Shown piece after piece: positions 11,950-62,018 of a DNA stretch of 64,000 nucleotides (its first letter is position 1; the number at the start of each line of letters is the position of its first letter). Both the position numbers and the translations under genes were made by a program. The stretch is taken from positions 345,650,001-345,714,000 of the forward strand of contig OZ024740.1 in the NCBI GenBank assembly GCA_964016885.1. The letters are read 5' to 3'. The notes beneath the pieces were generated by a model. That model searched no databases. It had not been told where the DNA came from and worked only from the letters and a program-made list of their open reading frames with translations. This stretch comes from Eledone cirrhosa (Eukaryota).

Positions 11950-12945
11950 TTTGCGAGGTTTTTGATATGAAATCGTGTGTCTAAGCAAATATTGTTATAC
12001 TTGGGGAGGGTCATATTTGTGTAATAATATTGCCAGAATTAATAACAGAACACACTCACTGTTTGGTTGGTTTTCGCCTCTGTGTCTTTTATATCGGTTA
12101 ATTTAATTTATTCGGTCCTCAATGTTACCATTGACTGACCAACGGTAAAAAATACAGATATAACATAGACACAAACACATATATAGTATAAAGTTCTTTC
12201 GTTGCACATCTGCAACATCGTCAGTGGTGCTATTTTGTTTCCTCCTGTTGTATTTTATGCCTACGCCATCTTTATTTAGTCTGTTTAATTATTTATTTAT
12301 TTATGTTTGCCTTCTTCTCTGCTCATGCGTTTGCGCGTGTGTATTGTGTTTGGCTGACTGTGTATTGGTTATTGTAATATATCTTAGTTTACTAGTGTGT
12401 GTTTATATGTGTTTGTTGTTATTGTGCTTGTGTATTTATTTATTTATTTATTTATACTTCTCTTAGGTCAGTATTGTTTGTTTGGGTGTTGTTGTTATTC
12501 CATTCATTTTTTCTGTTTAGCCTTGGACTTCTAATTTCTATTTCGCTGGCCTCTCTGATTTGCCTATCAGCTGGGTCATTTCTATGTTTAGATATTATTC
12601 TAATTTCTATTTTGTCTATGTTACCGTCGTGTTGTTGTCTGGCATGTTCGTATAGCACTGAACCGTTTTTTCGTCCTTTTAGTTCCCCCTAGTGTTGGTC
12701 TATCCTTTCGATGTTGCAGATGTGCAACGAAAGAACTTTGTTAGATTATATATATGTGTTTGTGTCTATATTATATGTGTATTTTTGACCGTTGGTCAGT
12801 CAATGGTAACATTGAGAACCGAATAAATTAAAATAACCGATATAAAAGACACAGAGGCAAAAACCAATCAAACAGTGAGTGTGTTCTGTTATTAATTCTG
12901 GCAATATTATTACACAAATATGACCCTCCCCAAGTATAACAATAT
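11950..12945. mobile_element. Penelope-derived inverted pseudo-LTR pair (~230-bp inverted repeats 11989-12220 / 12709-12945)
   Basis: Arms are reverse complements; they contain a hammerhead motif and the ORF start MTLPKYNNI also seen at 51593; flanked by (TA)n. Confidence 0.8.
12187..12229 (-). ncRNA. Minimal hammerhead ribozyme motif
   Basis: Minus strand: CTGACGA-T-GTTGCA-gatg-TGCAAC-GAAAG-aa-CTT; stem I degenerate. Confidence 0.65.
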
Positions 12946-13899
12946 ATATATATATATATATATTTTATATATATATATATACTATTATAGGCACCCATTT
13001 TAAGTGTGATGTAGCGAATAACTATGTGTATACTGTGGGAATGTATCCTACATTGCCTATTGTGTACGCTGAGATACCACCGGTCCTGGCATTGATAAAA
13101 ATGCTGGGTCCGTCAATTCATTATCTTTATTATATATATATAAAATTTCAAGTCATCGATAATGTAGTGATAATATATCGTCACGTTAGAGATGAACAGC
13201 GTACGTGTAGGTTTGCTCAACGTGTATAAATTATATTCCGGAGAAAATGTAGAAAAGATGAATATAAAATGAAAGTGCTTTTATAAAGGAATTTATTAGG
13301 TATTGACATATGTTTCTGTAACAGACGGAATACCTATGTATCGCTGCTTGCGTAATAATATAATATTAGCAAGTATTCGATATAAAATGTATAATCAGTT
13401 GTGACTTCTTCAGAGATATTGGATAAATTGGAAAAAATCAGAAAAATTAAAGTATTCATATTAGTTGTAAGAAAGGAAGAAGAGAAGGGATAGTATATGA
13501 CAGATAGCAATTCAATTTGCTGGTAAACATGTATATAGAATTTTTTTAATGAGAATACAATGAGTATATGGCTTATTTTATCTAAATAAGAATTTTTGGG
13601 AGTGCCTATTTTAATCTATATTTGACCAATTGAACAATGGACAGGGCTGGTTGTTTGGTGTATTAGTATTAATACAGATATAAAGTATCAAGTAAGGAAG
13701 AGAGAGATTTTCACTGTTACTCTATAACAACAATGCTGGTAGCCTGCTGGTATATGCATTAGGGAATTGAATTAAGAAATCTCATTTTATCTATAGCAGT
13801 TTATATTAGATGGTAAAGAATAGAAGAGTTGATAGAATTAAGACTAATAGAGAATATTAATATGTCTTTTGACAATCAAACGGAGATGGAGACAGGCGT

Positions 13900-15160
13900 T
13901 CAATCCTGGTAGCGTTTGTAATATGAAAATGTAGATTTCAAGCGATCGTTACAGTATAACGATCGCTCTATTCTGTTATTTAATAAAATATTTTTGGATT
14001 TCATAATACAAAATATTTCTATGTTACACAATTTACAAAATTCCTGTCCTTGGAAATATGCAGGGACAACACTATTATATCCCATTTTAGGTTAAATTGT
14101 TGGTTATTTTCGCGCAGCTGCCAAGCCTTGTCTGCGAGTGTTGTTACATAACGCTGGTTTTCATGTTTTATCAAGTAACGATATCTATAAAGGCGAGATT
14201 TGAAGGAAGTAGTTGTAGACCCCACATAATAGCACTTCTGGCTACCCGATTCGATAGTACATTTGTATATGATGTTGCGTTCAAGACACTGATTGTTCAA
14301 CGGACACATTCCTGGTTGGACACAGTTACAGTTATAATTATGCGTTGTTGTATTACCATGGATGGGTTGATGAGGTTACTTAGGCAGGACGTGATGTTTT
14401 TTGTTGTTTTGTGATGTTATAGCCGATGTTTTACGTGTATTGCTATGTGTTGGAAGGCGTTTATACAACCGTTTTGCTTAAGCTTTTTTATATGTGGTTC
14501 AATATTAGGGGCGGTTGAATGTGAAAGTCGAATAGTGTTAGGGTTTAAGATTTTATTATATTTATGTGATGTTGGAAAATGTTTTTTAACTAATCGAAAG
14601 AATTGTGAGGGTAGATTGGTTTTAATAGAGTTGTTATATACCGGGTTGTACCATATATACACTTTACATCGCCTTCTGTTTGGTGGTGTGCGACTATTAA
14701 TGTGTATATTGCGGTAGTGTATGTATGGTGGTTATTCTATGCTATTTTTACCTCTATGAGATTTATTTTGGGTGTTTTGGAGAACGTCGACTATATACTC
14801 TATATTATCTAGGTGTCCAGCCTTCCTAAGTGCATCATCATAATATTCGGCATTTTCTTTGAAGGTTTGCTGGTTGGACGGCAGGCGGGAGATTCTAAGG
14901 GAAATATTTCTAGGGATGGATTTAATTATAGAGGGTGGCTGGTTAGAACCCGTATTTACATATTTAAGGTTCTCATTTAGTTTATGGAACAGTTTAATTG
15001 TTTCTGTATTGAGATTCAAAGTAACATCAAGGAAATTAACCTCTCTGAGGTTATATTCAAACATAATATTTAATCGTAGTTCCTTAAAAAGCTTTCTAAT
15101 ATTTTTATATATATATATAACATTTAAAAGTTTACGTACATATAAACTAGACAGAGCCAT
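13900..15160 (-). mobile_element. 5'-truncated, frameshifted Penelope-like element (Naiad-type motifs)
   Basis: VNFLDVTLNL, IWYNPVY...KHFP..HKYNKILNPNTIRLS, CNC...CPLNNQCLERNIIYKC...YVGSTTTSFKSR (GIY-YIG). Confidence 0.85.
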
Positions 15161-15246
15161 ATATATATATACGGTTCTTACATATTTGATATATATTTAT
15201 CCTTATCGAGCCCTCTTTGGATTTTAGTCTTCAAATTTATTATTAT

Positions 15247-15292
<46 letters not shown>

Positions 15293-15295
<3 letters not shown>

Positions 15296-15501
15296 TAGTC
15301 AATTTCTACAGGCTATCAGAAATACTAGGTACATTTACTGTGGCTGTGAATCGCGGATAAAAAGCTATCATTTATTTATCTTTTATTTCTTCATCAGTAT
15401 ATCTTAAACTTATAGCCTCGTTTAAAAGATTTTTTGTATGGTTGATTATGCTGATTGGGAGAAGAAATACTCTATATATGTTATCTAATGATTCTATGGA
15501 C
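15293..15501. repeat. Single-arm, A-retaining relative of the 17872-18453 fold-back, embedded in (TA)n
   Basis: Aligns to 18236-18440, e.g. gattttttgtatggttgattatgctgattgggaga vs gattttttgtatggttggttgtgctgattgggaga. Confidence 0.75.
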
Positions 15502-15508
15502 TTACTTT

Positions 15509-15556
<48 letters not shown>

Positions 15557-16943: not shown

Positions 16944-17049
16944 GTATATATGTATAAATGTATGTATGAACGTATGTATGTATGTATGTATGTATGTATG
17001 TATGTATGTATGTATGCATGTGTGTGTGTGTATAAATGTATTTATCGTC

Positions 17050-17597
17050 GAGTCGTTGGCGACTAAACTGGCAACCCCACAAAGGTTTCTTGGTGAGGAG
17101 GGTGACTTTGGACATCCTGCAGGACTAAAAACAAAATCTGTCAAAGGGTAAAGAAGCTCTTAAGAGTCAATGCCCATCCAAAATCACCGGGAGAGATGAC
17201 CCTTTAGCCTTTGTCAAGGTAGAATTCTAGCAGAAGGAAAACTCTGATATAACACCTGCAAACCTGATGGTATCCAATGATGTTGACTTGTCATCTTTTT
17301 GGTAATATCATCTTGGTTAAGAGAGTGGGACTGGCTTTGTGCAGTGCCTTTGCTCACTATACACGGTTCACGGCACAGGCATTGCTTTATATCTGCAGAT
17401 CTCTCTACACTTGTCGTCACATGGTACCAAGGGCCCAGCACTATGTGTCAATAATTGTCACAAGTGTAGTGTTTGAACCAGAGTTTTCAAGTCCCTGGTT
17501 GGACTAAAAGGTCACACTCGTTCAGCGCATCGGTAGGGGTTCATCTACATGGATATAAAGTAGTGGCCGTACTCGAAAACGAGTTGGCAGCCACCAT
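17050..17597 (+). mobile_element. RTE-derived non-autonomous (bipartite) retroelement, copy 1
   Basis: RTE 5'UTR-like gaaggaaaactctgat motif joined to a C-terminal C2H2 remnant; near-identical to 18842-19456 and 62069-62472. Confidence 0.7.
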
Positions 17598-17624
17598 GTG
17601 TATATATATATATGTGTATATATA

Positions 17625-17721
<97 letters not shown>

Positions 17722-17871
17722 ATATATATATATATGTGTATATATATATGTGTATATATATATATATGTGTATATATATATATATGTGTATATATATATA
17801 TGTGTATATATATATATGTATATATATATATGTGTGTATATATATATATGTGTGTATATATATATATGTGT

Positions 17872-18453
17872 ATATATCATGAATCATGTCCTTAGAATTG
17901 TTGGATGGGGTATATACCGTTTCCTCTCCCAATTGGCATGGTTAACCATATGGGAAGTCGGTTGGACCGGGCTATGAGAATGAAGGCTGCTATGAGGAGG
18001 TGTTTGATAAATGGCCGAGGGCGGCCTCTTCGCGGTGGCCCCGGTGGAGTATTTGCCCGGCAGTTCAACAGCATGTGGAGGCTGACTGGGTGTACCGTCA
18101 ACCATGCACAGTTGGGTGTAGGTTTGGACTTGGGGGAGACGTGTACATACCGTGATTAATGAGATGTAATTACGGTATGTACACGTTTCTTCTGGGTTTG
18201 AATTTGCACCTAGTTGTGTGTGGTTGACGGTGTATTTGGTCAGTTTCTGCATGCTGTTGTGATGTTGGGTGAATGCTCTGTTGGGGTCACCGCGAGGGGG
18301 CCGCTTTCGATTGTTTATCAGGTGTTTCTTCATGGTGGCTTTTATTCTTGTGGCCTGGTCTAATTGATTTTTTGTATGGTTGGTTGTGCTGATTGGGAGA
18401 GGAAGTGGTGTATGTTTTGTCTGATGGTTCTAGGGACATGATTTATGATATAT
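17872..18453 (+). other. 287-bp ungapped inverted repeat (8-nt loop 18159-18166) forming a G.U-rich hairpin only as + strand RNA
   Basis: All pairs satisfy i+j=36325; manual count ~88 GC, ~103 AU, ~93 GU, 3 mismatches. Confidence 0.95.
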
Positions 18454-18841
18454 TGCTCTGATTATTTAATTTATTAATTCTTCATTGAGCCACAACGTGA
18501 CCGGTTGCCACATATATATCTGTGACTTTATGTTTATATAAATCTTTATATATATGTGTGTATATATATGTGTGTGTATATATGTGTATATATATATATA
18601 TATATGTGTATATATATATGTGTATATATATGTGTGTATATATATATATGTGTATATATATATATGTATATATATATGTGTATATATATATATGTGTATA
18701 TATATGTGTATGTCTATATGTATGTGTATGTGTATATATATGTGTATGTGTATATATATGTGTATTTATATATATATGTATGTATATATATATGTGTATG
18801 TAAGTATATGTGTATGTATATATATGTGTATATATATATCA

Positions 18842-19456
18842 TCAGGTCACCAGTTGGTGCTACTGGTAACATGTATCCCAGTACAACCTGTCTCATGGGT
18901 CGGGTCGTTGGCGACTAAACTGGCAACCCCACAAAGGTTTCTTGGTGAGGAGGGTGACTTTGGACATCCTGCAGGACTAAAAACAAAACCTGTCAAAGGT
19001 CAAAGGGCAAAGGAGCTCTTAAGAGTCACTGGCCATCCCAAATAACCGGGAGAGATGACCCCTTAGCCTTTGTCAAAGCAGAATTGTAGGAGAAGGAAAA
19101 CTCTGATATAACACCTGCAACCCTGATGGTATCCAATGATGTTGACTTGTTCTTCTTTTTGGTAAATATCATCTTGGTTAAGAGAGTGGGACAGGCTTTG
19201 TGCAGTGCCTTTGCTCACTATAAAAGCTTCACGGCACAGGCATTGCTTTATATCTGGAGATTTCTCTGCATTTGTCGTTACATGGTACCATGGGCCCAGC
19301 ACTATGTGTCAATAATTGTCACAAGTGTAGTGTTTGTAGAGTTTTCAAGTCGCTGGCTGGACTAAAAAGTCACACTCTTTCAGCGCATCGGTGGGGGTTC
19401 TTCTACATGGATATAAAGTAGTGGCCGTACTCGAAAACGAGTTGGCAGCCACCATG
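18842..19456 (+). mobile_element. RTE-derived non-autonomous retroelement, copy 2 (longest)
   Basis: High identity to 17050-17597; ends gagttggcagccaccat followed by (TATG)n. Confidence 0.7.
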
Positions 19457-20303
19457 TACATATGTATGTATATATATATATATGCCTGAACGTTTGTATG
19501 TATGTACGTATGTATATATTTATATTATCATATAAACCCGAACTTTTCTTTGTAAATCTGGAAACAACGTTACCAATTCTCAGCAGTTAATTATTATTCC
19601 AAATTGATTAAATTGCCAGCGGTCTTTCAATGGGGAGTGGAATGGTGCGGTTACGTGAAGTCACCTTTATATGTATTAAGAATAACTACATCTATACCAG
19701 CAATACAATTATTAATCATCATTGTCTGCTCCAATAGCAGCGTCATTACTAACAACAAACTTGATTAATAACTATAAAAAGTGTTATTTACGTTGACAAA
19801 ATCATTAACCATATGAATGCGCAGAAAAACCATTAATATCATTATCGTCATTAGAAATGTTGTCGTGGTCGTAGTCAACTTTGTAGTCGCTGTTTTAGTC
19901 ATTTACGACGTCACCTCCTTCATCTTCAATGTTTAGAAATAAGAAATAGCAGAATAGACGCTCAAATCTTTATCAGAATGGCTTAAGTCATCGGAGGCCA
20001 GAAATATTTTACAGATTGTCCTCATATCCATCAATCTCGAAATTCCAGGGGAAAAATGTCATCGTGTTGTTCTTCTCGTTACCGAATAAATACCTAGATA
20101 ACCGAATAAACAATATCTATTATTCAGGAGAAGAAAGGACACTTTGCATAATATAAACCTACATATCCTTAAATATACATCAATGTAATTTCTTGATTTG
20201 ATTGATCTGGGCCTTAATAACAACATCGATAATAATATAATTTCCTATGTGAAATTCATATTTTATTCCCGAATTATAACTTTCCACTGGCAATTACAGT
20301 TAT

Positions 20304-27177: not shown

Positions 27178-30100
27178 AATAATAATAAATTTGAAGACTA
27201 AAATCCAAAGAGGGCCCGATAAGTATAAATATATATCAAATATATAAGAACCGTCGGTTCAGCACTCTATTGACTTATATTCATCATGCAGAAACAACAT
27301 CTGAATATTTCTACAAAGAACATACCCGTACCAAGTAGGAAAACATACCTAATACTCCTGATACAGAAAACAAACGCGTTCATTAAAAGGTTGCGTTGGC
27401 GTGCCTTTTATTTCCATAATCCGCGAAAAGCAGACAACAAACCGGATAAATTTGGGTTTAAAACCTATAATAACCCTCCGTGTAACCCAGCATTGCTACC
27501 TTCGAAAATGATGTCTTGGAACTCATACGGAGTATCATTTTTCGATATAGGAGCAATTCCTTCCAGCAACACCTGAAGAATAGAATTCGTACTATTAAGT
27601 ATTCTAATGCCGTGCACGTCCATTCTGACAAAACTGGCAAACTATATCAAGTGGAGCGCAGTACTTACTATCAACTACTACATAATGCTGTAACTAAGGA
27701 TTACCGTAAAACTAATCGGTGCGTCATCAATGAAATCAACGATGCTGGGTTTAAAATCACATGTGATCTCAACATCCTGGACCGACCGAACCTCTGGACC
27801 CTATTTCTCCCCACTTTACCCTGAAGGATCACAAATCTAATTTTCCGAACATCCCTCTATTCCGCTTATTAACCTTACGAAGTCCGATTTAGGTACACTT
27901 AGTAAAAGTATTATTGATAGAATTATACCTGAAATTAAAAGTTTGGCCCCTCTTGCACTGTGGAACAATTCTTTCGCGGTGATTAATTGGTTCAACTGCA
28001 TATGCAACAAGGAACATTGTCGTTTTATCCAATTCGACATCAATAATTACTACTCCTCCATCACTTTACCACTTCTCCTTAGAGCTATCAATTTCGCTAA
28101 AACACTCACAGTGGTTAAGGATTTCGAAGTTGATGTCATCCTCAATGCCCGTCAGTCGGTGATTAATTTCGACGCCTCTATTTGGATAAAAAAATCCAAT
28201 AGTACCCCATTCGACGTTAGTATGGGCGCCAGCGATTCTACGGAGGTTACTGATCTTATAGGCCTTTTCCTTCTTTTCTCTATCAAGGACGAATTCCCCA
28301 ACGTGGGCGGTGATTTATACCGTGATGATGGTCTTTTTACCATGATTATGTGCGGCCCTCGTGCTTGCGACAGGTTCAGAAAAGAACTCACAGCCTTCTT
28401 TAAAGGCTTCAACCTCTCTGTATAGGTCGAGGCCAACTTCTCGGTCGTTAATTACCTCGACGTTACCCTCAATTTATCGAATGGCTTGTATTACCCGTAT
28501 AGAAAGGCCGAATGATACGCTTAATTACATAAGTAAGCATTCCAACAATCCTGACAGCATAACCAAGAACCTGGTAAGAAACGTTTCGTTGAGGTTTTCC
28601 CGTCTATCTACTACCGAGCATATTTTCAACGACCATTCCACATATTACAATGAAGCTCTTGCTCGGAGTGGATTTGTCGATACGGTAGCATATACTGAGT
28701 ACGAGAATAGACCTAGAAGAAATAGATCCCGACGCATTATATGGTATAACCCACCATATATTATGGAGGTGGCCACACCATTAGCTAAGAACTTTCTATC
28801 CCTTATTACGAAGCATTTTCCCCCTACACATAAATATAGTAAAATTTTTAATAGAAATACTATTAAAATTTCTTACTCTACGACTCCTAACCTTGCACAT
28901 AACATCACAGCTTCAAATTTAGCTAAACTACCTAGCCGTAGGAACACGTGCAACCCTGTAGTTAGTACTAACTGTAATTGTAGGAATCGGGTTGATTGCC
29001 CCCAATCCGGGAAATGCCTCTCTAGTAACATTGTCTACAAATGTAAGGTTGAAACACCCACGTCCCATAGGGCCTACATAGGGTTAACCGCCAATAGATT
29101 CAAGCAGCGTCTTTACATGCATACCCATTCTTTTCGTTACCCTCTAAGAAGGAATATGACGTCACTTTCAGCTTATATCTGGAGTCTAAAAGACAACCAC
29201 ACCCAATATAAGTTACACTGGGAGATCCTAGCTAGGGCTAGATCGTATAACGGAAATAAAAGAACATGTGACTTCTGCACCGCTGAGGCCCTGGAAATAC
29301 TCTACGCCACAGACCACATCTTAAACAAAAAATCTGAGGCAATTTCGGCCTGTAAACATAAATTGCACAAATCGTTCTTGTATTACAGCCCTACATTATA
29401 CCCTAACGGATAGTACGATCTATACGCGGATATTTTACGTCTTGATGTGGTAGCTAAGTATATGTTATGTTTATACCATTACTTATTTGCATAGATAAGT
29501 ATATATTACTGTTTGTTTTGTGAAGGTACGTATACTTTCTCGTACGTATATTTGATTGTATATGTTATGGCGTATATTTTATATATTCTGGTGCATATGC
29601 TTTTGGTTATGTGTATACGTGAGTTTTGCATCTATGCGAGTATAGAGGTTCGTACGTATGTAGGGTGTGTGTATATGTGTACTTCGTGTTTTGGTTGACG
29701 TACGTCTCCGAACATTTGTGTATTTACACATAGGTATGTGTGTGCGCTTGTTATATACGTATTTATTTATTTATATACGTTTATTTAATTATTTGTATAC
29801 TCGCACACACACACACACATATTTATATGTGCGTGTATTTGTATACCTATGGCGAGTGTTTTCGCGTATACATGTGTATGTACGTATTTGGATGCGTGTA
29901 TGTATTTATTTAATTTCAATTACCTCTGTATTTTATTTACTTTATTTTTAACTCTGAAGCGGAGAATCATTCGGTTTCCTAGTTAGAATTTTAGTCTACG
30001 ACTTCAGTTATAACATTTACGTGGTTTTGTCTTTGCGTGCAATTGTTCCCCACGCTCCACATATGACGTATTATCTTCGCTTTTTCGTTCATTGCCTGAG

Positions 30101-39927: not shown

Positions 39928-40993
39928 TAGTGGTGGACTGGCCAGGTTGCCAGGTTACCCAACGGCGAGTGGGTCCCAGGGAACCCACGGTAGCATTGCA
40001 GGAAGGCACTGTAGTATTTTATGAGCCAATGCTCTTCTTTCAAAAACATTTTTTAAAAGAAAAGTCTGAGAGCAAAAATGAAAATGTTTAAAAGATAAAT
40101 AATTGATTCTACTTTAGGCACAAGGCCAGCAAATTACCCAGTGTATTACTGGTACTTAATTTCATCGACCCCGTAAGGATGAAAGGCAAAGTTAACCTCG
40201 GTGGGATTTGAACTCAGAATGGAAAGGGCCGTAACTCTTTGCGTCAAAGCATGGCGTCCGACCCTCTGCCAATGAAATAAAGAAAGCTTTTGGCTAAACA
40301 ATTCCATAGGGAATTAATAGCTTACTGTATTCATTCATGCATGCGTAAATACATGGACACACACACACACATGCATACATATATATATAATATATATATA
40401 TATATATACTTAGACATACACACTAGCTGGTGGCCAAATAACCTTTGGTGTCAATGGGTTAAAGACATATGTAAAATCAGTTAATGGTCAGTTCTTTAGT
40501 CTAAAATCCCTAGGGAGAATGAGTCGCTAAATAATTTTTGTACAAGTTGAAAACATGTATGTATACATATATATAAATCTGCATGTACATGTACATACAG
40601 ACTACCACATATATATATTGAGTGAATGTTATTGAAAGCCTCTGGATGTGTATATTTCGCTAGGTACTTTATATTTTTATTGGAGAAGATAAAAACGGTC
40701 ACTTGCATACTCTACTCTAAATAAAAGTATACTATACACAATTATCTAAATATTAAATTATAACATTCTGTATTAACATTTAGTACTACTGTATACTGCC
40801 AGTAATTTGTACAGTATATATACACTATAATTAGTAAAAAAAAATGCACAAATTTGATTGCAGTGTTTTGTTTTCACTTATGCATTTTTTGAAAATGTTA
40901 TTTACTCATAAAAATTAAATGATAGCATTCTATACGTGGTTGTGCCCTCTTTATCTCCTGGCAACCAATATTTTTTGACCCAGCCCGCCACTG
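39928..40993. mobile_element. hAT-like MITE remnant with nested SINE (40097-40272, minus)
   Basis: Imperfect TIRs TAGTGGTGGACTGG / CCAGCCCGCCACTG with subterminal GGTTGCCAGG / CCTGGCAACC; no clean TSD. Confidence 0.5.
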
Positions 40994-42367: not shown

Positions 42368-42537
42368 TATAGGGTCGGACGCCATGCTTTGCAGCATTGA
42401 GTTACGTCTCTTTGAGGTCTGAGTTCAAATCCTGCCGAGGTTAACTTTGCCTTTCATCATTACGGGGTCGATAAAATAAAGTACCAGTAATGCACTGAAT
42501 AATTACTAGCCTTGTGCCAAAAAGTAGAAATAATTAT
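42368..42537 (+). mobile_element. Nin-domain SINE
   Basis: Same family sequence. Confidence 0.85.
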
Positions 42538-49924: not shown

Positions 49925-50903
49925 CCTCAGTCAGAAGTCTATAGAATTCTTTCTGATAATGTTCTCTAATTTACCCTTATGTTCTATTTTAGCATGTTGG
50001 TAGAGTACAGATGATTCTTTACTATCTCGAAGGTCTCGCCAGTGTTCATTTATCCGTTCTCCTATACTACGAGCTGTCTCACCTATGTACACTATATTTT
50101 TATCTCTACATTGTCCTTCAGTACATCTTATGCTACATACTACATTTCTAATTTTAGAGTTAATATGGGGGCTTAATTTACAGATTATACATTTCTTATT
50201 TATACAGGGAGTTCTTTGAAAAGGGTATGTATTGCTAATAAGTGTTTTTATGGAGGTACCTGGTCTTTCTACTATCTTAATATTGAGTTTATGTTTATCT
50301 AGGGCCCTTCTAAATTTGTAAGCTAATTCACCTCTAGGGGTTGTATCAATGAACATTACACTCTGATATTTATTGCTCTCATACCATGAGTTTATTCTAT
50401 TAGCCTTATTCCTAGTTCTTTCAATTCTATTCCAAAATTTGCTCCTATACAATGGGCAGGTCCCATTTGTGTCGTTATTTACCATTTTTTCCCATTTGGT
50501 TCTGGCTCCTCTATATACTCTGATTTTATCTCTCTGATTGTAACCAGAGAACTGCATACGGTGGATGAAGTGTTGTATGTGTCTCTCTAGTTCTTCGGGA
50601 TGGCACATGCGGGACACGTTTCTCATCACCCGTACCAAATCCGCAATCAGTATGTTGATTTTGGTATGGTCCGAAATAGCTGAGTTTCGGTGGATCAAGT
50701 ATTTGGAAGTCATGGGTTTGATCTAATGGGAATGAAGGATTTGTTTTTTGTTGTTGATGGTATCTAACAAGAGCCCTGTGTCTAGTACAGGTAATCGATG
50801 GTTGGGGTGTTTGCTTGGGTAGTCTACAGTAACTCTAATACTCTGGTGGATGGAGTTAGCTATTTGCTGGATGCTTTCCATTGTCTTTCCATTGTGTTTC
50901 CAT
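49925..50903 (-). mobile_element. Penelope-like element fragment (RT thumb plus GIY-YIG)
   Basis: RLPVLD, SGYN, PCINKKCIIC, RNVVCSIRC...YIGETARSIGERINEH. Confidence 0.85.
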
Positions 50904-52438
<1,535 letters not shown>

Positions 52439-61105: not shown

Positions 61106-61745
61106 TGTAGTTGCTGTTTGATTGTTTCTTCACGAACTCCTCCTATGGTTCTGGAGATAGACCCCCATAACCATATATATTCTGAAACTACATTGCCCAG
61201 AGTACTTCCATAAGTATATTTCATTTAAATAAAATGTTTCCCCGGGGCACAAACCTCGTTGAAATATTTTCTCTTCGATTTATATGAAATTTAAACCATA
61301 GGTAAATGACAAGATATGATGCTTATTCACACAATTTCAGCAAATATTAAAACACCCTAAAGGGGGTTAAACCCCTATCAAAATATGTTTCCCTTCGATT
61401 TATATGAAATTTAAACAAAAGGTAAATAACAAGATATGATGTCTATTCACAAAAGTTTTGAATTGATATTTTGAAATAAATTATTTACAAGAAACAAAAT
61501 ATGAATAAGATTTAATAATGTATTTTTCATTTGATATATTACAAAAATAATGTTTTCCAATTTTTCATGCATTACATTTTACATTGAGTAATATTGAAAT
61601 GCAGAGTGTTTCTCCATAAATTATTTCACTGATTTAAAATCAATCATCATTTTCTTACAAAAAAAAAAATGTGTGAAACGCAGCCAGGCGTGGGTTATTC
61701 GGCAATGAGAGGGAGACAGGTAAATATATATATATATATATATAT

Positions 61746-62018
61746 ATAAAGAAAAAGAGATGAAATCGAAAATGCAACTGAAGTCATGTTTTTTTTTAAA
61801 TATATATATTTATTTGGTTCCTTTACCGGTTTCGCAGTTCTTCTGCTTTTCAAAAGGTGAGTTGAGATGGAGGGAAACCGGTAAAGGAACCAAATAAATA
61901 TATATATTTTAAAAAAAAATAAGACTTCAGTTGCATTTTCGATTTCATCTCTTTTTCTTTATACTTTCACTCGTGTAGGACACCTCGGTTATTTTTCATT
62001 TTGTAAAAAAAACCTCAC

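What the first reader, a model, noticed from the sequence alone, without database searches (positions are those of the whole stretch)
15293..15501. Nearby A-retaining homologue polarises the hairpin changes as A>G
This (TA)n-flanked single-arm segment aligns with the right arm (18236-18440). It has A where the arm has a wobble G at about a dozen sites (e.g. 18313, 18324, 18334, 18337, 18350, 18352, 18383, 18386, 18405, 18419, 18423, 18427) and T opposite the left-arm wobble Gs. It shares G at a few sites (18374, 18382, 18391, 18426), which may be ancestral or independently edited. The hairpin therefore belongs to a dispersed family whose ancestral state is A-rich.
Basis: partly seen in the sequence, partly recalled or inferred. 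Interest (0 to 1): 0.72.

Follow-up and report, generated by a model that had tools for sequence, protein, structure and literature searches.

The report
ADAR-edited hairpin frozen in genomic DNA
A hairpin-shaped copy of a young jumping-gene family has about half of its paired A letters changed to G on one strand, likely because the RNA-editing enzyme ADAR edited its RNA before it was copied back into the genome; the flagged segment itself is an ordinary, unedited cousin of that family.

Summary
The direction A>G is confirmed, but 15293-15501 is not the parent. It is an unedited fragment of a sister subfamily (A), about 73% like the hairpin's real family (B), whose copies mostly lie within 1-4% of their majority. 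Against 49 B copies the hairpin (17872-18453) has 55 of 115 adenines changed to G in the left arm and 36 of 76 in the right. All are on the + strand, with only six other changes in the arms and none in the unpaired tail (0 of 18). The context fits ADAR: 82 of 139 edited after U/A, 9 of 52 after C/G, UAG 10 of 11. The four 'shared G' sites are parallel changes, not ancestral. Short-read contigs reproduce the edited letters. Family B is a 657-base, non-coding, hammerhead-bearing repeat with Penelope-type ends. Best reading: a fold-back insertion was transcribed, hyper-edited and reverse-transcribed into DNA. The unedited source was not found, so the write-back route is inferred. It is rare: 0 of 202 other inverted repeats were skewed. 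This scan noted the same phenomenon earlier at other places in this genome and in other genomes; I partly checked one. My literature searches found only retroviral and APOBEC precedents.

The parts
15293..15515 (+). The finding: 5'-truncated, unedited fragment of subfamily A of a hammerhead-bearing non-coding repeat; outgroup to the hairpin
   Evidence: 94-95% to best genomic copies, 2170 first-look candidates; 9 differences from the majority of 29 copies over 15293-15501, none A>G
17872..18158 (-). Left arm: inverted copy of subfamily B ending at the family's first 3' end (site 1); 55 of 115 + strand A read G
18159..18166 (+). 8-base loop; the sense copy begins at 18161, the predicted hammerhead cleavage site
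   Evidence: fold; consensus position 5 = 18161; motif; the cleavage site is inferred from the recalled hammerhead consensus
18167..18453 (+). Right arm: sense copy of subfamily B; 36 of 76 A read G
18454..18554 (+). Unpaired family tail up to the second 3' end (site 2); unedited internal control
   Evidence: 0 of 18 A changed outside 18169-18450, counted up to 18515 (16 in the tail, 2 at stem ends); 96% to a family unit
17596..17871 (.). Left (TA/TG)n flank, likely the target microsatellite
   Evidence: one-sided TG content is common in this genome and not diagnostic
18555..18839 (.). Right (TA/TG)n flank
17047..17594 (+). Copy of another high-copy repeat (family C) left of the insertion; no A>G excess
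   Evidence: 1 A>G among 27 differences from the majority of 19 copies
18843..19457 (+). Second family C copy right of the insertion; no A>G excess
   Evidence: 1 A>G among 13 differences (18896-19455 compared)

Best explanation
The hairpin at 17872-18453 carries 91 A-to-G changes confined to its paired arms on one strand, and is likely a DNA copy of an RNA hairpin that ADAR hyper-edited before a Penelope-type reverse transcriptase likely wrote it into a (TA)n site. Step 1 (architecture shown, mechanism inferred): subfamily B often inserts head-to-head, one half ending at site 1 and the other about 100 bases further at site 2, which gives a near-perfect fold-back. Step 2 (inferred): such a locus was transcribed across both arms in the + sense and folded into a duplex of about 285 base pairs. 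Step 3 (signature shown, enzyme inferred): about 48% of the paired adenosines became inosine, with ADAR's neighbour preference, and editing stopped where the duplex stops. Step 4 (inferred): reverse transcription from the tail end read inosine as G and the copy entered heritable DNA; the unedited source locus is lost, polymorphic or absent from this assembly. The segment at 15293-15501 takes no part in this; it is an unedited outgroup. I put RNA editing followed by reverse transcription by any route at about 0.88, and this particular route at 0.72.
For: Polarity against 49 subfamily-B copies: 36 A>G and 4 other changes in the right arm; 55 A>G and 2 other changes in the left arm, plus 2 non-matching loop bases. 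Family background is A>G 29 of 1612 and T>C 11 of 2392. No C>T excess (1 case). Both arms are changed on the same strand, which one molecule folded on itself explains. Tail 0 of 18 against right arm 36 of 76, p=7e-5. 5' neighbour: U 46/75, A 36/64, C 5/27, G 4/25; 3' neighbour: G 19/27, A 34/62, U 29/73, C 9/29; UAG 10/11; 5' U/A against C/G p=2e-7. This matches the 5'-U/3'-G preference and the 5'-G/5'-C clash described in PMC11334849 (passages) and the upstream-G depletion in PMC5625713 (passages). The level matches 'up to 50%' for long dsRNA (PMC2075533, abstract start in listing). The edited strand is the one on which the family's own tail is at the 3' end. An unedited fold-back with nearly the same breakpoints exists (L091), so such substrates occur. 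Short-read contigs carry the edited letters with 0 differences at a depth like the neighbouring single contig (9.2, 8.8 and 7.0 against 6.1 and 8.0).
Against: No unedited source locus: the loop junction has 1 match in the assembly, itself, at up to 2 mismatches. The 5 copies sharing the one marker common to both arms are 83-94% relatives with no fold-back in the fetched loci. The element keeps both ends of a first-round inverted insertion (21 of 26 inverted B insertions have this pairing of ends), whereas one-orientation insertions mostly end at site 1 (18 of 25); a second-round copy must have started at site 2 and run through the whole hairpin. No autonomous partner for family B was identified. 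Transmission to other individuals was not shown; X1 and X2 are one sample.
Confidence: 0.72

Rival explanations
1. In-place overwriting: the fold-back inserted here first, was transcribed and ADAR-edited, and a cDNA of the edited RNA replaced its own locus by RNA-templated repair or gene conversion.
For: No source locus found; both first-round ends are intact; the editing signature is the same as under the best explanation.
Against: Needs a conversion tract of at least 550 bases and a route less established than retrotransposition (my knowledge). A lost or polymorphic source is plausible in a single assembly.
Confidence: 0.15
2. DNA-level deamination: the + strand folded as a DNA hairpin or cruciform, or lay in RNA:DNA hybrids during the first insertion, and its deoxyadenosines were deaminated and fixed at replication.
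For: A DNA hairpin gives the same one-strand, arms-only pattern and needs no source locus. ADARs can edit DNA in RNA:DNA hybrids (title of Zheng 2017 as cited in PMC12925331, passages).
Against: Hybrid editing during reverse transcription would give the same change in both arms in family orientation. The arms show opposite changes, 36 A>G with 0 T>C and 55 T>C with 0 A>G, and an unedited tail. No natural enzyme that edits DNA:DNA stems with this preference is known to me (recalled), and 48% inosine in DNA should be repaired.
Confidence: 0.07
3. The wobbles arose by C>T decay, or by slow selection that keeps an RNA stem while the DNA arms diverge.
For: G.T pairs can arise from G-C as well as from A-T.
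Against: Only 1 C>T against the parent majority. Other copies differ by about 1-4% without skew. 0 of 202 other inverted repeats are skewed. The neighbour bias is not expected.
Confidence: 0.02
4. Sequencing or assembly artefact of a palindrome.
For: Long fold-backs are error-prone in assemblies (general knowledge).
Against: Contigs of run X1 cover 17876-18190 and 18164-18457, and one of X2 covers 18164-18457, each with 0 other letters.
Confidence: 0.01

Closest known systems
ADAR-type A-to-G hypermutation in avian retroviruses (Rous-associated virus U3; avian leukosis virus inverted repeat), as summarised in PMC12925331 (passages; the original paper is not held)
   Same: Nearly half of the adenosines changed to G in an inverted-repeat region of an RNA that is reverse-transcribed.
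   Different: Here the carrier is a non-viral, non-coding endogenous repeat, and the edited copy sits in a chromosome-scale contig of an animal genome.
APOBEC DNA editing of LTR retrotransposons fixed in vertebrate genomes (PMC4866542, passages)
   Same: A burst of one-directional, strand-biased, context-biased changes frozen in a single retroelement copy and polarised by its subfamily.
   Different: That is G-to-A on the sense strand through cytidine deamination of cDNA, and was reported absent from invertebrates; the word ADAR does not occur in that main text. Here it is A-to-G, limited to a fold-back stem.
A-to-I hyper-editing of inverted and palindromic repeats in metazoan transcripts (PMC5625713, passages)
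   Same: Same substrate (long, nearly perfect hairpin of a repeat), strong depletion of G upstream; 21% of edited sites here have 3' G and 37% have 3' A, close to the invertebrate group described there.
   Different: There the edits are RNA-to-genome mismatches; here they stand in the genome.
Non-LTR retrozymes / non-autonomous Penelope-like elements (10.64898/2026.07.22.740005, part 1 of 5 read; PMC11167929, parts 1-2 of 4 read; PMC8557442, passages)
   Same: Tandem non-coding units with a type I hammerhead-like motif, two alternative 3' ends that define a tail, inverted 5'-truncated copies, insertion in AT-rich microsatellites.
   Different: Unit 657 bases with a long stem II; tail about 100 bases instead of 30-40; no autonomous partner identified here.

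Membership tests
ADAR hyper-edited dsRNA | Changes are A-to-G on one strand, polarised by a close parent | tested here: met
   91 A>G against 6 other changes in the arms
ADAR hyper-edited dsRNA | Changes confined to the duplex | tested here: met
   0 of 18 outside the counted stem; flanking family C copies show no A>G excess
ADAR hyper-edited dsRNA | Neighbour preference: 5' G (and C) disfavoured, 5' U/A and 3' G favoured | tested here: met
   against PMC11334849 and PMC5625713
ADAR hyper-edited dsRNA | An RNA of the unedited source seen with inosines; dependence on ADAR | not testable with these tools
   source locus not found; no enzyme assay possible
Non-LTR retrozyme / non-autonomous Penelope-like element (family B) | Type I hammerhead in each unit | tested here: inconclusive
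   core and stems present by motif in 39 distinct copies (34 with an intact CUGANGA core; consensus recalled); Rfam found no hammerhead family in one unit; cleavage not assayed
Non-LTR retrozyme / non-autonomous Penelope-like element (family B) | Tandem units without coding capacity | tested here: met
   three units at about 657-base spacing in L095; six-frame translation of one unit full of stops
Non-LTR retrozyme / non-autonomous Penelope-like element (family B) | Tail between two 3' ends; inverted copies with the tail at one end | tested here: met
   two dominant ends about 100 bases apart; 21 of 26 inverted insertions pair site 1 with site 2, none has the same end twice
Non-LTR retrozyme / non-autonomous Penelope-like element (family B) | Homology to the pseudo-LTR of an autonomous RT/GIY-YIG element | tested here: inconclusive
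   RT- and endonuclease-like pieces lie near some copies but no linked full-length partner was shown; no genome-wide search for one was run
APOBEC-edited retroelement | Clustered G-to-A on the sense strand | tested here: not met
   1 G>A in the right arm, none in the left

The most novel reading that the evidence does not exclude
An ADAR-edited transcript rewrote its own chromosomal locus: RNA editing was copied back in place into heritable DNA by cDNA-templated repair, which would explain the intact first-round ends and the missing source copy.
Probability: 0.15. Interest if true: 0.92.

Novelty: new variant of a known kind. Interest (0 to 1): 0.68.

Why it matters
A-to-I editing is normally transient. 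A chromosomal copy with 91 ADAR-type changes against a parent that is about 99% intact is a clean record of RNA editing becoming a heritable mutation. It implies that ADAR and a retroelement reverse transcriptase met the same RNA in cells that contribute to the germ line or early embryo. It is an A-to-G counterpart of the APOBEC-edited retroelements of vertebrates. It is directly testable: population reads at this one site separate retro-insertion from in-place rewriting. The flagged segment alone is ordinary.

Tried and rejected
(1) 15293-15501 as the parent: rejected, it is a sister subfamily. (2) A>G editing of the flanking (TA)n runs: their content looks one-sided (T141/A111/G30/C0 and T153/A102/G48/C2), but most interrupted TA arrays in this genome are one-sided too (68 arrays listed); dropped as evidence. 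(3) L091 as source: similar breakpoints, but a different junction, a deletion and private changes. (4) Source search by junction and by shared marker: none found. (5) Other edited B copies: two motifs that each demand two UAG edits matched only the window. The permissive motif has 162 matches; of the 100 listed, 96 are parent-type, 3 have one A>G and 1 is the window. (6) Scan for wobble-skewed inverted repeats: 0 of 38 in 18 arbitrary 10-kb stretches and 0 of 164 in 131 family loci. One further stretch, L129, an AC-rich satellite, gave false hits and was dropped. (7) Rfam: only sub-threshold matches around the finding and no hammerhead hit in a B unit. (8) Protein search with the nearby RT-like piece among longer proteins: none at E<=0.001, so the host taxon was not tested. 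(9) No RNA holder listed among sequencing runs. Runs X4 and X5 cover only the family tail and stem end. RAD-seq runs X7 and X8 were laid only on the neighbouring flank and barely cover it. (10) Heterozygous versus homozygous state could not be resolved from contig depth. (11) Literature: searches (listings only) showed no paper on ADAR-edited endogenous retroelement copies in an animal genome. The library lacks most subscription papers, I read no supplements, and supplements of PMC4866542 might list A-to-G clusters.

Full report
Observation. The segment 15293-15501 lies between two (TA)n runs and aligns with the right arm of the hairpin at 17872-18453. The hairpin folds on the + strand into a rod of 280 pairs, 92 of them G.T, at -418.9 kcal/mol; the - strand gives -214.9. 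Arm against arm, 93 of 96 differences are of the G.T type.

What the flagged segment is. It is a truncated member of a high-copy repeat, subfamily A (2170 first-look candidates, best copies 94-95%). It differs from the majority of 29 copies at 9 positions, none of them A>G. It is 73% identical to the hairpin's own family, so it is an outgroup and not the source. Its four shared Gs are fixed in subfamily A (27-28 of 29).

The true parent. Searches with each arm found subfamily B, whose copies mostly lie 96-100% from their majority. Against the majority of 49 copies the right arm has 36 A>G and four other changes; the left arm has 55 A>G on the + strand and two other changes, apart from two loop bases. 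That is 36 of 76 and 55 of 115 adenines, against a family background of 29 of 1612 and 11 of 2392. The four shared sites are A in B and in the left arm, so they are parallel changes. Outside the counted stem 0 of 18 adenines are changed (16 in the tail, 2 at the stem ends; p=7e-5), and the family C repeats on both sides show no A>G excess.

Signature. Edited fractions by 5' neighbour are U 46/75, A 36/64, C 5/27, G 4/25; by 3' neighbour G 19/27, A 34/62, U 29/73, C 9/29; UAG 10 of 11. This is the ADAR preference described in PMC11334849 (passages) and PMC5625713 (passages). In family orientation one arm shows only A>G and the other only T>C. Editing of separate RNA templates, or of cDNA in hybrids, would give the same change in both arms; a single + strand molecule folded on itself gives the pattern seen.

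Not an artefact. Contigs of run X1 cover 17876-18190 and 18164-18457, and one of X2 covers 18164-18457, with no other letters. Their depths (9.2, 8.8, 7.0) resemble the neighbouring 836-base contig (6.1, 8.0), as expected of one copy present in bulk DNA. X1 and X2 are one sample and may be the source of the assembly.

The carrier. Family B has a unit of about 657 bases, occurs in tandem (L095) and has no reading frame. A type I hammerhead-like motif is present in 39 distinct copies (consensus recalled; Rfam gave no hammerhead hit), and the right half of the hairpin starts at its predicted cleavage site (18161). Copies end at two sites about 100 bases apart. Of 26 head-to-head insertions, 21 have one end of each kind and none has the same end twice; one-orientation insertions end at site 1 in 18 of 25 (these loci were selected by similarity to the queries). 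This matches the tail between two reverse-transcription start sites of Penelope-like elements (PMC11167929, parts 1-2 of 4), their inverted 5' copies and microsatellite bias (PMC8557442, passages) and the non-LTR retrozymes (10.64898/2026.07.22.740005, part 1 of 5). No autonomous partner was linked, so membership is likely, not proven. L091 is an unedited fold-back with nearly the same breakpoints.

Mechanism. Shown: polarity, strand, confinement to the stem, neighbour bias, presence in DNA. Inferred: transcription of a fold-back locus, A-to-I editing by ADAR, and reverse transcription into a (TA)n run between two family C copies. Against the committed route: no unedited junction exists in the assembly at up to 2 mismatches; the five copies sharing the one marker common to both arms are distant and show no fold-back; and the element keeps both first-round ends. 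In-place overwriting (0.15) and DNA-level deamination (0.07) therefore stay open.

How common. Within B it looks unique: two motifs that demand double UAG edits match only the window, and 1 of the 100 listed matches (162 in all) of the permissive motif is heavily edited. None of 38 inverted repeats in 18 arbitrary 10-kb stretches and none of 164 in 131 family loci is skewed (the satellite L129 was dropped). Earlier AI notes of this scan describe the same phenomenon at other places in this genome and in other genomes. At the place of one of them I found a skewed hairpin (42 against 5), also seen in 19 of the 20 best-matching loci, the place itself included; I did not polarise it. Those notes call the genome octopus-type; I did not test the taxon.

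Comparison. The closest precedents are ADAR-type hypermutation in avian retroviruses (via the review PMC12925331, passages) and APOBEC-edited LTR elements in vertebrate genomes (PMC4866542, passages). Six searches (listings only) showed no paper on ADAR-edited endogenous retroelement copies fixed in an animal genome; the library is incomplete and no supplements were read. Interest 0.68.

Noticed in passing
window 14019-15196 (-): Broken, 5'-truncated Penelope-like coding piece: RT-thumb-like frame, cysteine knuckle and a weak GIY-YIG match (Pfam E=0.005, below cut-off); a similar RT plus endonuclease piece lies at 28381-29233 (+).
   Followed up: partly
window 15114-15158 (-): 45-base piece of the subfamily A tail abuts that RT-like fragment; probably an independent insertion in a TA run.
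   Followed up: no
L114:4488-4856 (G000:C1 near 181.208 Mb): Second wobble-skewed hairpin of another family, 42 against 5, seen in 19 of the 20 best-matching loci (the place itself included); direction of change not tested.
   Followed up: partly
L091:2093-2741: Unedited subfamily-B fold-back with a spacer of about 10 bases and breakpoints nearly the same as the window's; a natural test substrate for editing in RNA.
   Followed up: partly
window 11965-12220 / 12709-12970, 40099-40258 / 42378-42537, 49994-50172 / 50883-51043, 61707-61833 / 61874-62001: Other inverted repeats in the window, none with G.T skew; fold-backs are very frequent in this genome.
   Followed up: partly
window 4884, 16916, 56841 (+): Further hammerhead-like core motifs belonging to other repeats.
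   Followed up: no
L174-L178: Older subfamilies 83-94% like B, several with hammerhead-like cores, show that the A/B repeat group has radiated repeatedly.
   Followed up: no
window 17047-17594 and 18843-19457: Family C: very high-copy repeat of about 610 bases (6344 first-look candidates) inserted in TA and TATG microsatellites; identity not worked out.
   Followed up: partly
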